A stretch of 64,000 nucleotides of DNA from Octopus sinensis. Its lineage: Eukaryota. This document shows positions 7,053 to 22,852 of this stretch, piece after piece. The position numbers and the translations under genes are program-made. The stretch spans positions 53,444,001 to 53,508,000 of the forward strand of contig NC_043003.1 of assembly GCF_006345805.1 (NCBI RefSeq), given 5' to 3'. Position 1 is the first letter of the stretch, and the number at the start of each line of letters is the position of its first letter. Under the pieces are notes generated by a model. The model saw only the letters and a list, made by a program, of their open reading frames with translations. It was not told the origin of the DNA and searched no databases.

Positions 7053-7345
7053 ATATCTTATTGTGTCTGAGGAGAGTTATTTTCTTTTAGTGCCTTATTA
7101 TTTGACATACTCACCGGTTCGATTTCCACTCATTTACTTATTTATTTGTTTTTTTCTAAAAATTTTCGTTGCGTCTTGCAATCTTTTCAATAGTCGTTGA
7201 CTCTCAACGACTATTGAACAGGCTGCAAGACGCAACGAAAATGTTAGGAAAAATAAATAAGTAAATGAGTAGAAACTTTACTGGTGAGTGTGTTAAATAA
7301 TAAGGCACTAAAAGAAAATTACTCTCCCCAGACACAATAAAATAT
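7053..7345. repeat. Fold-back inverted repeat (about 145-bp arms, 3-nt loop), Penelope-like remnant
   Basis: 7053-7200 is the reverse complement of 7204-7345; single-arm copy at about 30224-30360. Confidence 0.85.
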
Positions 7346-8569
7346 GCTTCAACACATGAATTCACATAAAGAATGTTGCAAACCAAATACAAAAACAAAA
7401 TTAGATATCTAGTTATAAAAAAAACTTATGCAGTAAAGAAGACATTAGCTCAATGACTAATATAATTTAAATCATTATGGTAAAAACAGGAGACAATTCC
7501 ACAATTTGATTATATTAGACCTCCTAAGTGAAGCATAAACTTCACTGTACTAGCCAAAGTAAGAATTAGAGATATGGAAAATACGAAATCGTCCCCGAGC
7601 ATACGTGAAAAATTCATGTATTTTATATTTTTGAAAAATAAATCTCTGAAGTTCATTATTCAGAGCTAATATTTTTCATTGACGTAGACTTTTACTCACT
7701 GTATTTATAATTAAGCATTTAATGTTGCTTTAAATATAGGACGGCTGATTAGCAGGCAAAAGCCTTGCGGTAATTGATCTGATTCTCTGCAGGCTGAGTT
7801 CAAGTACCATTTAAGCTAACGCTGCTTTTTCATCCCTTGGGGACAATAAAATAATAACATATCATTTAAATATTTAGTTCCTAACTCTCTCTCTCTCTCT
7901 CTCTCTGAGAATTGACTACACTACACTATGAAAGGGTCGTTGGGGACTCGAGAACCCCTACCGCCAAAAAATGGAGGAGGGTTGAACTAGGAATTAGCAA
8001 CCGCTTCTTTTGTAACATGTTAAATAAAAGTTCAAAAAACTCATGAAACAGGGCGGGCGTGGTTGGGTTGATATGCTATGCGGTACAGAACAATTTCAAA
8101 ATAAACATGAAAAATAATTAAATTTTCTAACTTAACTATTGTTTTGCAAGCGGGTTGTATCTCTAAGTAATTAACCTCTATAATACGTGATTTGTGAGCA
8201 TAAATGTTGCAGAGATCTAAATAAATGCAATGTATCCATCCAATATGAGTGGTTCTATTTATACCCATTGTTCTTTCTCTCTCACATAGCTACACATGCA
8301 GGTCGGAGCAAAGCACCTTCTAGAGTGCAGCTGCAGAGTATGTATCCTAGCATGCAACCATGAACAATAGATGTTCATCGTTGCAGAAGATTTCGTTTGT
8401 CTTATAAACGTGTGTCTCCTCCCATAAGCAGCCATACTTTCAATGATAAACGCAGCTACCCGCTTCTACTTGGCTTCCTTGCTAACTTCTCATTCTTGTT
8501 ACTTCAACACATGATATTCTAACATTTCCCCAAGACCAGCTATAGTTTAGTAGCTGCTTCTCAAATCAT

Positions 8570-9830
8570 AATATTGGTTTCAAGTTTTGGAACAAGACCA
8601 GAAAATTAGGGGGAGGGTAGTCAATCGCAACTAGTACTTATTTTATCGACACCGAACGGATTGAAGGTTAGGTCGATCTCGGCGAAATTTGAACTCAAAA
8701 AGTAAAGACGGGCGAAATGCCGCTAAGCATTTTGCCCGGCGTGCTAACGATTCTGCCAAGCTCGCCATCTTTCTCAAAATTATAATATTCTTTTCTACTG
8801 AAGGCACAAGGCCTGACATTTTGGAGTAGGGGGCCAGTTGATTAGATCGACCCCAGTACGCAACTGGTACTTAATTTATCGACCCCGAAAGGATAAAAGG
8901 CACAGTCAACCTCGGCAGAATTTGAACTCAGAACGTAAAGACAGACGAAATACCTATTTCTTTACTACCCACAAGGGGCTAAACACAGAGTGGACAAGCA
9001 AGGGCAGACAAACGGATTAAGTCGATTATATCGACCCCAGTGCGTAACTGGTACTTATTTAATCGACCCCGAAAGGATGAAAGGCAAAGTCGACCTCGGC
9101 GGAATTTGAACTCAGACGTCGTGGCAGACGAAATACGGCTAAGCATTTCGCCCGGCGTGCTAACGTTTCTGTCAGCTCGCCGCCTTTAAAATAAATGCGC
9201 CCTTTTAAAGCTTAGTCAGGCTCATGGGCCAGGTTTCCCGGTTTCTATGGCGTATGTGTTACCCAGCTGTACGGAACGCCAGTCCATTGCAGCGTTACTC
9301 ATTTTTGCCAGCAGAGTGGACTGGAGCAACGTGAAATGAAGTGCTTTGCTCAAGAACTCAACGAGTCGCACGGTCCAGGAATCGAAACCCCAATCTTACG
9401 ATCATGGTGCTGACACCCTAACCACTAAGCCAAAATAAAGACGAAAATACCTATTTCTTTACTACCCACATGGGGCTAAACATAGAGTGGACAAACAAGG
9501 ACAGACAAAGGGATTAAGTCGATTATATCGACTCCAGTGCATAACTGGTACTTAATTTATCGACCCCGAAAGGATGAAAGGCAAAGCCGACCTCGGCGGA
9601 ATTTGAACTGACAACGTAACGGCAGACGAAATACCGCAAAGTATTTCGCCCGACGTGCTAAAATTTCTGCCAACTCGCCACCTTTTCTCAAAATTATATT
9701 ATCGTTTCTATCATAGAAACAAGGCAAGGAAATTGGGATGAAGGAATTTAGTCGATTACTTCAACTCCAGTATCATCGACCCCGAACAGGTGGAAGATAA
9801 ACTTGATGTCAGTAGAGGTTGAATTCGGAA
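8570..9830 (-). mobile_element. Cluster of tandem and nested Nin/Deu-like SINEs plus one other tRNA-SINE
   Basis: Repeated tcgaccccgaaaggatgaaaggcaaagtcgacctcggcggaatttgaactcag units. Confidence 0.85.
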
Positions 9831-9969
9831 CGTAAATCAGAATTCAAATAAATTTTCGCAGGACTTTCTGTCCAACGATCTAACGATTCTGCCTATCCAC
9901 CACCAACGCAAAATATTTGCGAAAATGTACCTTTTAGATGTGTCAAACAGTCCAATACAAAAACTTTTT

Positions 9970-10382
9970 GGATCTTTTCGCTTTGAACGGCAGTTTTTTA
10001 AAATAATTTCCACGTAGCTAAACACTTTTAAACTTCGTATACTGTTAGAATGTGTTTATAAAACATCTTTTTCTCTTGGCTTTATTGAGAAAAGTCTATA
10101 GTTTGTAAGATATTTGTTGTATTTTTTCTTCAATTTCTGCAATTTCAACCAATCAATGACGTCTATTGAGGTGAAAACATTCTGTGCCGTATGAATATGT
10201 CGTTTAAGAAACAGATTGGGTTTATTTACATTTCTGAAGAAAAAAAGATACCCTTCTCCCCACCCCTAACCTTAACCCTAAAACAGATTGAAATGCAATA
10301 GATCGATACTAGGGTCATAATTATGGGTGACAATTTCATATGACACCGCTAGAAAAAACTGCCGTTCAAACCGAAAAGATAC
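9970..10382. mobile_element. GGATC-TIR MITE, inverted relative to the 6097 copy
   Basis: Same TIRs and internal sequence; TSD aacttttt/aactcttt. Confidence 0.85.
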
Positions 10383-10496
10383 AACTCTTTTATAAAGCCC
10401 ATTCAATTCATTTCTATAATGTCCGCCTCAACCAGAATCATAAAACTGAAAAAGTATTACTTAGCGAGTAATCCGTTGTCCCTTCTAGCAATATGT

Positions 10497-10876
10497 GGAG
10501 GCGCAATGGCCCAGTGGTTAGGGCAGCGGACTCGCGTTCGTAGGATCGTGGTTTCGATTCCCAGACCGGGCGTTGTGAGTGTTTATTGAGCGAAAACACC
10601 TAAAGCTCCACGAGGCTCCGGCAGGGGATGGTGGTGATCCCTGCTGTACTCTTTCACCACAACTTTCTCTCACTCTTACTTCCTGTTTCTGTTGTACCTG
10701 TATTTCAAAGGGCCGGCCTTGTCACTCTCTGTGTCACGCTGAATATCCCCGAGAACTGCGTTAAGTGTACACGTGTCTGTGGAGTGCTCAGCCACTTACA
10801 CGTTAATTTCACGAGCAGGCTGTTCCGTTGGTCGGATCAACCGGAACCCTCGTCGTCGTAACCGACGGAGTGCTTC
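10497..10876 (+). mobile_element. Near full-length tRNA-derived SINE
   Basis: A box tggcccagtggttagg, B box ggtttcgattccc; flanked by repeated tctagcaatatg (TSD-like). Confidence 0.85.
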
Positions 10877-21181: not shown

Positions 21182-21409
21182 GATGAAATCCACTCAATCA
21201 CACGCCAGATCTTACCATAACGATAAATACGCGTGTGGTTCAATTGATTACATCCGACGTTATAATTCAAATACCCCAACTAACAGCGCGCCAAACTTTC
21301 ACGGGAAACAAATACAGCATTTAGAAATAAATGCAGCATAATTATAATTAATTAATAAGGGTGAGAGAATTAGATACTAATTTAATAGCATATATACTAA
21401 TTTAATAGC

Positions 21410-21603
21410 ATATATATATATATATATATTATATATATATATATATATATATATTATATATATATTATATATATATATATATATATATATATATATATAT
21501 ATATATATATATATATATATATTATATATATATTATATATATATATATATATATATATATATATATATATGTATATATATGTATATATATATATATATAT
21601 ATA
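21410..21603. repeat. (TA)n microsatellite
   Basis: Visible directly. Confidence 0.95.
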
Positions 21604-21604
21604 G

Positions 21605-22050
21605 GCAAATCAAAATGAAAACAAAAGCATGAAAAGTCAAAAGAACGTACAGTCAATATACTAGATTTGCACTCAGAGAATGTTTCAAATGGAAAAAAAG
21701 ATGGAGTGAACGTTTCGAACGTGGCTCGTCGTCAGAAAGAGGAAAGAGGAAAGAAATCCAGTGGGAAGGAGAAGATTAGTCCAAGAAAGCATCTCAGAGA
21801 GGCGCAACGGTACGTCTTTGGCCAAGTGCATATAGCATTTAAAAGAGAGAACGACATACAGCGTTAACAGGAGGCTCCTGGAACAGCCTAGATAATATCT
21901 CAACGAGAGCAGACGATTCCAACTTTGCTCAGCTGAGAGGGCAAGGATCCTAAAAAATTCACTGAACCCAGAAGCCTTTTTAAATTCCACAAGTGAAATG
22001 TTTAGCCGATGCTCCCATGAGAGAACGATTCATGTTGAAGATATAGAATT
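21605..22050 (-). mobile_element. Degenerate Penelope-like retroelement 3' fragment
   Basis: Minus-strand peptides KKASGFSEFFRI and ILSRLFQEPP resemble the PLE RT C-terminus and linker; followed by a CTGACGA-stem-GAAACGT motif at 21709-21738. Confidence 0.45.
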
Positions 22051-22589
22051 CCTCCACTTGCTGACCAGTGAATGGAAATCGTACATAAAGTCTTTTTCGA
22101 GAACAACGGCAATCGGTCAAAGGGAGATAACACCATCTAACCCAGAAAGGGTTTTACCTTGAAGAATTTCATTTCAGGTTTTTATTTTTATTTTCATTTT
22201 TTTTTTTTTTTTCACAACCTTGCTAACCAAGACTGTATTCTTACCTCCATTAGTAAATAGTTTATGTGTCTCCGGCCAGCAGATCTGATGAGTCGCCTAT
22301 ATTACTTAGTACAACAATAGACGTGAAACCAATGATAACATTCTAGCCGGCCATAACCAATGACTACTTTATCTGTGTGTGTGTGTGTGTGTGTGTGTGT
22401 GTGTGTGTGCGCGCGTGTATGTGTGTGTGTGCGTGCGTGTTTGTGTGTGCGCGTGTTTATGTGTCAGAATGCGTGTGCGCGTGTGTATGTGTGTGTGTTT
22501 GTGTGTGTTCCTATTTATGTGTGAGTGTGCGTATGTGTGCGCGTGTGCGTAGCATGTGTGTGTGTGTTTGTGTGTGTATGTGCATGTGT

Positions 22590-22852
22590 GTAAAATTAAA
22601 TGATTGATAAAGGTTCAAGAATTATGTAATCAACTTCATGAGCTTACATCTGTTTCTGCTGTAAGATACAGTGCACTAAGAACTGAGTGTCTTTGTCCCA
22701 CTTTCTATTAAGTCATTTTAGAAGCTCTGACGAAGCTATAAGGTGATGCGCAGCCACTCAACTCTGAAAGCACCGCATCTTATAGCAGAAACACCAGTAA
22801 GCTAATGAAGCTGGTTGCATAATTCCTGTACCTTTGCAGTTTTTTAATTTTC
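22590..22852. repeat. Inverted repeat element (22590-22670 versus 22776-22852) containing a hammerhead motif
   Basis: aaggttcaagaattatgtaatcaacttcatgagcttacatctgtttctgctgtaagat is the reverse complement of the downstream arm. Confidence 0.75.
22717..22809 (+). ncRNA. Type I hammerhead ribozyme-like motif
   Basis: agct-CTGACGA-a-gctataag..gatgcg..cgcatc-ttatagc-a-GAAA-c-acca-GTA-agct. Confidence 0.6.

What the first reader, a model, noticed from the sequence alone, without database searches (positions are those of the whole stretch)
7053..22852. Cluster of different minimal hammerhead ribozyme motifs with covarying catalytic cores in fold-back elements
Seen: at least seven elements in 16 kb that do not otherwise resemble each other share the layout stem I - NUGANNA - stem II - GAAA - very short stem III - stem I. 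They are at 7156-7193 (-), 17137-17187 (-) with 17296-17346 (+), 17963-17997 (-), 21087-21181 (-), 21709-21738 (-), 22262-22356 (+) and 22717-22809 (+). Core positions 3/8 are C-G, G-C or U-A, always Watson-Crick in the best copies. Established: C3-G8 is a tertiary pair in the hammerhead core, and minimal type I hammerheads with palindromic stem III mark Penelope-like elements and can cleave as dimers. Inference: this genome hosts many families of short, inverted-repeat, microsatellite-embedded ribozyme elements whose variant cores a CUGANGA search would miss.
Basis: partly seen in the sequence, partly recalled or inferred. Interest (0 to 1): 0.75.

Follow-up and report, generated by a model that had tools for sequence, protein, structure and literature searches.

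The report
Penelope retrotransposon ends with swapped-core hammerheads
These seven hammerhead-shaped RNA motifs are real, but they are mostly decayed tail ends of different Penelope-type jumping genes that landed near each other in an octopus genome; one abundant family with an intact copying-enzyme gene carries a flipped core base pair (G-C instead of C-G) that is predicted, not shown, to still cut RNA.

Summary
All seven motifs are at the stated places, and each belongs to a genome-wide repeat family whose majority sequence has the type I hammerhead core. One family (E) lacks stem I. They are not a new class of short fold-back elements. A, B, E (weakly) and F are 5'-truncated 3' ends of Penelope-like retrotransposons (PLEs), D is a young 534-535 nt tandem retrozyme, and C and G are inferred PLE ends. 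Only A, B and G are fold-backs, and only B(+) and D match their family ribozyme intact. Pairing at positions 3/8 covaries between families (7 C-G, 3 U-A, 1 G-C of 12), not within them. A (U3-A8) and B (G3-C8) are related PLE lineages, and B includes a copy with an uninterrupted 1,042-codon frame. Such motifs occur at about one locus per 17 kb, so the cluster is likely a pile-up of insertions of different ages. Minimal PLE hammerheads, U3-A8, the extra base after A9 and an octopus example are in print. I found natural G3-C8 in no paper, but one key paper was not held. This scan already noted G3-C8 and the retrozymes on other DNA. Cleavage is untested.

The parts
7059..7402 (.). Family A two-armed (fold-back) insertion: 3' end of a PLE, one arm with the short 3' end and one with the long 3' end, between 8-bp direct repeats at 7051-7058 and 7403-7410
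7156..7193 (-). A(-) hammerhead, U3-A8, extra G after A9; stem II base pair and stem III region damaged
7211..7247 (+). A(+) hammerhead, U3/C8 mismatch, damaged
16995..17446 (.). Family B two-armed insertion in (TACA)n/(TA)n: 3' end of the G3-C8 PLE
17137..17187 (-). B(-) hammerhead, G3-C8, one stem II mismatch
17296..17346 (+). B(+) hammerhead, G3-C8, matches the family majority; 7-bp stem I, 5-bp stem II, AAUAUU palindrome; predicted cut after 17339
17963..17997 (-). Family C hammerhead (C3-G8) in a roughly 190-bp repeat between (TA)n tracts; this copy has GUAA for GAAA and a broken palindrome, predicted dead
20939..21396 (-). Family D: partial monomer (about 457 of 534-535 nt) of a young tandem retrozyme, 98-99% like other copies, in (TA)n/(TATG)n
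21087..21181 (-). D hammerhead, canonical C3-G8, ACAAUUGU palindrome, intact; predicted cut after 21100; no tandem partner here
21600..21792 (-). Family E old repeat; hammerhead core at 21709-21738, stem I not formed
21790..22367 (+). Family F: decayed Hydra-type PLE endonuclease C-terminus (21839-22156, 47% to L207) followed by its 3' region
22262..22356 (+). F hammerhead, C3-G8; stems I and III damaged in this copy
22605..22950 (.). Family G fold-back; the (-) arm has lost core and part of stem II; the (+) hammerhead at 22717-22809 is C3-G8 with a long stem II and a changed palindrome

Best explanation
The seven motifs are independent, mostly decayed insertions of the ribozyme-bearing 3' ends of several Penelope-like retrotransposon families plus one young retrozyme, and in the parent elements the hammerhead likely cuts tandem transcripts as a dimer. 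Shown: the motifs, the family-wide cores, the link of A, B and F to reverse transcriptase/GIY-YIG frames, two fixed 3' ends about 60 nt apart in A and B, and tandem 534-535 nt units for D. Inferred: PLE protein copies the RNA from either of two internal start sites into AT-rich microsatellites and often stops early, which leaves short 3' fragments, sometimes as two back-to-back arms. Inferred: selection acts on the few master elements, so the 3-8 pair was kept Watson-Crick while it switched among C-G, U-A and G-C between lineages; inserted copies then decay neutrally. Inferred: the cluster itself has no joint function.
For: B: 23 of 50 endonuclease matches have a B-type ribozyme within the DNA held downstream, 21 of them G3-C8; L331 has an uninterrupted 1,042-codon frame with RT and GIY-YIG-type motifs and the G3-C8 ribozyme 933 nt after it. 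A: 5 of 30 loci (two are duplicates) carry a decayed frame, mostly 41-59% like B's in pieces, upstream of the U3-A8 ribozyme on the same strand. F: the upstream peptide has the CxCX5C, CxxC and CxH motifs that define Hydra and resembles Hydra-1_Obim, whose listed hammerhead has the same ACCA-A-UGGU stem III. Bimodal 3' ends: B 19+3 near +120-139 and 18+4 near +180-199 of 54; A 24 and 21 of 56. D: six full units plus a partial one in L181. Unbiased sample: 16 descriptor hits in 729,700 bases against 2 in 6 shuffles together; 14 of 16 Watson-Crick with 3/8 left free. Between families 11 of 12 majority pairs are Watson-Crick. A against B shows double changes at 3/8 and in stem II. In a PLE hammerhead, the engineered C3G/G8C double mutant partly restores cleavage (PMC11167929).
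Against: No cleavage or expression was shown. No frame was found for C, D or G; the link for E is one 22-residue match (E 3e-4). Pfam and PDB searches did not recognise the 1,042-codon frame; its identity rests on motifs and a weak match (E 5e-6) to an RVT_1-positive PLE. Computed energies barely favour the swapped dimer for B (-24.2 against -23.6 kcal/mol), and the free optimum is another structure. G3/G8 mismatches are in excess among B copies (40 G, 13 A, 47 T of the first 100 changes at position 8, my count), which suggests that some masters spread without the pair. PMC11167929 reports that cleavage is not needed for insertion in vitro. A has only a 3-bp stem I.
Confidence: 0.85

Rival explanations
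1. The motifs in A and B no longer cut. They are kept as a protein-binding or packaging structure, or simply inherited, and G3-C8 is a tolerated change fixed in one master.
For: Within B there is no compensatory signal: only 19 of 6,848 matches change both positions, 4 are A-U and none is C-G or U-A. G3/G8 copies are in excess. Family H spreads with U at position 6. PLE hammerheads cleave weakly in vitro, and cleavage was dispensable for insertion in vitro.
Against: B subfamilies about 84% alike in the frame changed loop II but kept core and stems. Related lineages A and B differ by double changes at 3/8 and in stem II. U3-A8 is the majority in three separate families.
Confidence: 0.2
2. One reading: a class of short fold-back ribozyme elements that move as such, and a cluster whose members act together.
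For: Three of seven are fold-backs; six loci lie within 5.7 kb (P 2.5e-4 per 64-kb window under a uniform rate).
Against: Fold-back axes and arm lengths vary from copy to copy; the arms are sense and antisense and fold into one hairpin; ages range from about 75% to 99% identity; palindromes differ between families except C and E, so mixed dimers are not expected; about 10 such windows are expected by chance among some 42,000 in the genome.
Confidence: 0.05
3. Chance matches in AT-rich repeats.
For: The descriptor is short; C, E and A fold weakly.
Against: Shuffles give next to no hits; family majorities keep the core.
Confidence: 0.01

Closest known systems
Minimal type I hammerheads in the pseudo-LTRs of metazoan Penelope-like elements (Cervera and De la Pena 2014, PMC4209133; parts 1-2 of 4 of the text read, supplement file 2 searched, file 1 not searchable)
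   Same: Short palindromic stem III, extra base between A9 and 10.1, U3-A8 families, single truncated copies, opposite-strand pairs 100-700 bp apart, many consensus families per genome.
   Different: G3-C8 is not mentioned in what I read; octopus is not among the terms found; density here (about 160,000 loci by extrapolation) is above the 2,000-9,000 motifs per genome quoted there, though methods differ.
Hydra-clade PLEs, Hydra-1_Obim (Craig et al. 2021, PMC8557442; section 11, passages and supplement rows seen)
   Same: Family F has the Hydra endonuclease motifs and the same stem III; tandem/inverted insertions, a tail at one end and microsatellite targeting are described there.
   Different: [quoted passage not shown]
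Metazoan non-LTR retrozymes (PMC7229834, passages seen; bioRxiv 10.64898/2026.07.22.740005, part 1 of 5 read)
   Same: Family D: non-coding head-to-tail units, one type I hammerhead each, dispersed arrays, proposed PLE origin.
   Different: The unit is 534-535 nt (about 220-390 nt in the examples seen); circular RNA was not shown here.
Natural hammerhead core variants (Perreault et al. 2011, PMC3088659, passages seen) and the engineered C3G/G8C mutant (PMC11167929, PMC8495972, PMC3884650, passages seen)
   Same: The 3-8 pair can covary; U3-A8 occurs in nature; G3-C8 partly rescues activity.
   Different: In these passages G3-C8 appears only as a laboratory mutant; here it is the majority form of a family with at least 6,848 matches.
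Small PLE-associated hammerheads that cleave as dimers (Lunse, Weinberg and Breaker 2017; not held, title seen in a reference list; content recalled)
   Same: Diminished stem III, PLE association, dimer cleavage.
   Different: Cannot tell; it may already include G3-C8 or cephalopod examples.

Membership tests
Minimal type I hammerhead of PLEs | Core N3-U-G-A-N-N8-A ... G-A-A-A ... U-H with a Watson-Crick 3-8 pair | tested here: met
   Majority in 7 of 7 families; intact in the window only in some copies
Minimal type I hammerhead of PLEs | Stems I and II | tested here: inconclusive
   Met for B, C, D, F, G; 3 bp of stem I for A; 1 bp for E
Minimal type I hammerhead of PLEs | Short palindromic stem III or loop | tested here: met
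   AAUU (A), AAUAUU (B), ACGU (C, E), ACAAUUGU (D), ACAGCUGU (G); F has ACCA-A-UGGU
Minimal type I hammerhead of PLEs | Self-cleavage as a dimer | not testable with these tools
   Needs an in vitro assay; the energy model is not decisive
Endonuclease-bearing Penelope-like element | Single frame with RT and C-terminal GIY-YIG upstream of the hammerhead | tested here: met
   B intact frame; A and F decayed; E weak; not found for C, D, G
Endonuclease-bearing Penelope-like element | 5' truncation, inverted partner arm, tail at one end only | tested here: met
   Bimodal 3' ends and short-plus-long arms in A and B
Endonuclease-bearing Penelope-like element | Insertion into microsatellites or AT-rich targets | tested here: met
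   B, C, D, E, F flanks; A lies between 8-bp direct repeats instead
Hydra clade (family F) | CxCX5C linker, CxxC before E, CxH after N, no CCHH | tested here: met
Nematis or Neptune clade (families A, B) | CX2-5CxxC linker plus CCHH; placement in an RT tree | tested here: inconclusive
   Linker and cysteine/histidine motifs are present; no tree with reference elements was built; 'Nematis-like' is recalled
Non-LTR retrozyme (family D) | Non-coding tandem units each with a type I hammerhead, dispersed | tested here: met
Non-LTR retrozyme (family D) | Monomer and circular RNA in vivo | not testable with these tools
   Only contigs of runs not on record as RNA were available

The most novel reading that the evidence does not exclude
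Octopus PLE lineages run a natural mutagenesis of the hammerhead core at very large scale: related lineages use G3-C8 and U3-A8, and another family of more than 13,000 copies has U at position 6 while position 7 varies freely. All are active ribozymes in vivo, tuned for slow, dimer- or protein-dependent cleavage, and on the order of 100,000 such motifs lie in the genome unseen by standard searches.
Probability: 0.3. Interest if true: 0.62.

Novelty: new variant of a known kind. Interest (0 to 1): 0.37.

Why it matters
The kind of element is known, and the cluster is ordinary. What adds something: a natural G3-C8 hammerhead tied to an apparently intact autonomous PLE, with a related U3-A8 lineage, gives a ready set (C-G, U-A, G-C, and U6 in family H) for asking whether PLE hammerheads must cut for the element to spread, which the papers read here leave open. 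It also shows that CUGANGA descriptors and Rfam miss two large hammerhead families in this genome.

Tried and rejected
Rfam scan of the window: no hammerhead family up to E = 5, only microsatellite-driven microRNA hits. Within-family covariation in B: none. Pfam and PDB on the B frame and on F peptides: no useful match. Expression: no RNA holder listed for the D monomer; contigs from four runs cover the unit and join its end to its start, but tandem DNA gives the same joint and the runs are not on record as RNA, so this says nothing on expression, circles or cleavage. Simple-repeat content did not predict ribozyme loci across 73 sampled stretches (rho 0.10, P 0.42). A host gene over the cluster: coronin-7 exons end at 42875 on the minus strand, so the cluster lies about 20 kb past that gene; no other gene was mapped there. 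Upstream walks for C and G found no frame. The background sample stayed at 73 stretches (730 kb), so the density estimate is rough. Literature: seven answered searches gave no paper on natural G3-C8 hammerheads and none on cephalopod hammerheads beyond Craig 2021; Lunse 2017 was not held, and supplement file 1 of PMC4209133 could not be searched.
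Full report
Setting. The window is G000:C7:53444001-53508000 in a 2.72-Gb genome. Exons 97% like Octopus bimaculoides coronin-7 run on the minus strand down to window 42875, so the genome is an octopus and the finding lies about 20 kb or more past that gene's stop.

Observation. All stated motifs are in the sequence. 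A descriptor (N-UGA-N-N-A, optional extra base, stem II, GAAA, short palindrome or stem III, UH, stem I) gave 3 strict hits against a mean of 0.15 in 40 shuffles; relaxed, 4 hits of score 13 or more against none. Rfam found no hammerhead. I name the elements A (7156/7211), B (17137/17296), C (17963), D (21087), E (21709), F (22262), G (22717).

Each is a repeat family. DNA searches gave 223 to 3,927 first-look candidates per family, of which 40 were scored each time. Alignments of the fetched arms give the full core as majority in all seven: U3-A8 in A (38 of 46), G3-C8 in B (31 of 35), C3-G8 in the rest. These arms were picked by likeness to the query, so their conservation is not a selection test. 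Exact patterns count 1,296 A copies and 6,848 B copies, 92 of the first 100 with G3-C8. Stem III is a palindrome of 4-8 bases, or nearly so in F. E lacks stem I beyond one pair, and A has three pairs. In the window only B(+) and D equal their family ribozyme.

What they are part of. Walking upstream of B reached a GIY-YIG-type C-terminus about 1 kb before the ribozyme. A protein search scored 150 of 3,265 candidates. Of 50 endonuclease matches in the loci fetched, 23 have a B-type ribozyme downstream: 21 G3-C8, one G3/G8, one A3-U8. L331 holds an uninterrupted 1,042-codon frame with DKSG, GAIG and YVDD motifs, a CX3CxxC linker and a YIGET endonuclease. Pfam and PDB did not recognise it; it aligns weakly at the RT motifs with an RVT_1-positive PLE in L176. 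Upstream of A lies a decayed frame mostly 41-59% like B's in pieces, on the same strand as the U3-A8 ribozyme in 5 of 30 loci, so A and B are related lineages. F is preceded in the window itself by a decayed endonuclease end (21839-22156) with the motifs that define the Hydra clade; it resembles Hydra-1_Obim, whose hammerhead is listed in the supplement of PMC8557442. E has one weak link to a PLE endonuclease end. C resembles family H, which follows a near-complete PLE frame in L176/L074/L002, but no frame was tied to C or G. D is a young non-coding unit of 534-535 nt in tandem and inverted arrays, 98-99% alike: a non-LTR retrozyme; the window has about 457 nt of one unit.

Fold-backs. A, B and G are two-armed. 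A and B copies end at two fixed points about 60 nt apart, and the window's A and B insertions each have one short and one long arm; A sits between 8-bp direct repeats. This matches the inverted, 5'-truncated partner and one-sided tail described for PLEs and the two internal start sites of reverse transcription reported for an anole PLE (PMC11167929, part 1 read). A transcript through a fold-back is predicted to form one long hairpin, which would block the ribozyme.

Covariation. In 73 stretches chosen by round coordinates (729,700 bases), with 3 and 8 left free, there were 16 hits: 8 C-G, 4 G-C, 2 U-A and 2 C/C (mutated B arms in one stretch); six shuffles gave 2 hits in all. Over all loci held, a set biased towards A-G, 12 families had two or more members: 7 C-G, 3 U-A, 1 G-C and one tie from a single locus. 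A against B shows double changes at 3/8 and in stem II (six related rows, so not a probability). Inside B there is no compensation: 19 of 6,848 matches change both positions, 4 to A-U, none to C-G or U-A. G at position 8 is three times as common as A (40 against 13 of the first 100 of 213), which hints that a mismatched master also spread. So the pair is kept between lineages, and copies decay after insertion.

The cluster. A library of all families found gave 44 loci in the 730-kb sample, 0.60 per 10 kb, or roughly 160,000 in the genome as a rough lower estimate. The window has 9 loci against 3.9 expected (P 0.017), six of them within 5.7 kb (P 2.5e-4 per window under a uniform rate); four neighbouring 10-kb stretches have none. 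The library includes the window's own families and the window was chosen for this feature; with about 42,000 windows, some 10 such clusters are expected by chance alone. The members differ in age, strand and palindrome. I read the cluster as a pile-up in a microsatellite-rich spot (13% simple repeats against 7%).

Literature. PMC4209133 already reports minimal PLE hammerheads, U3-A8, the extra base after A9, opposite-strand pairs and low activity as dimers. PMC3088659 reports natural U3-A8. G3-C8 appears as an engineered partial rescue. Searches found no natural case; Lunse 2017 was not held. Earlier notes of this scan describe retrozymes in this genome and the G3-C8 family on other DNA; I reached the reading before opening them and tested the G3-C8 claims here.

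Verdict. Real motifs, known kind of element, an ordinary cluster. The natural G3-C8 core on an apparently intact PLE is a modest new variant, already seen by this scan, and its activity is untested. Interest 0.37.

Noticed in passing
L002:1113, L074 near 2700-2760, L176; not in the window: Family H, the 3' end of a PLE with a near-complete frame, has a hammerhead core with U at position 6: 13,529 exact matches, 99 of the first 100 with U6, none with A6, while position 7 takes all four bases. An uncompensated core change fixed in a very large family.
   Followed up: partly
window 21785-21800: The 5'-truncated ends of E (minus) and F (plus) abut head to head with no spacer, like a two-armed insertion made of two different PLE families; one case only.
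   Followed up: no
   Followed up: partly
G000, family B: G3/G8 mismatch copies are in excess over G3/A8, several on C20 with a shared loop change; possibly a sublineage that spread without the 3-8 pair.
   Followed up: partly
L242:9394, L256:6583, L210:2801, L058:3104: Two more U3-A8 hammerhead families unrelated in sequence to A.
   Followed up: partly
window 60887-62385: Tc1/mariner transposon with inverted ends and a 370-codon open frame, in a coronin-7 intron.
   Followed up: partly
window 49027-49152 and 51656-51781: Inverted repeat pair, 94% complementary, around two coronin-7 exons (49670-50809); could favour exon circularisation or RNA editing.
   Followed up: no
window 17612-17746: Another fold-back (66-nt arms) with no hammerhead hit.
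   Followed up: no
window 2241-2936 (-): 231-codon open frame with a hydrophobic stretch, no Pfam match; may be a first exon.
   Followed up: partly
window 6198-6244: Short interstitial TTAGGG array, about 8 copies.
   Followed up: no
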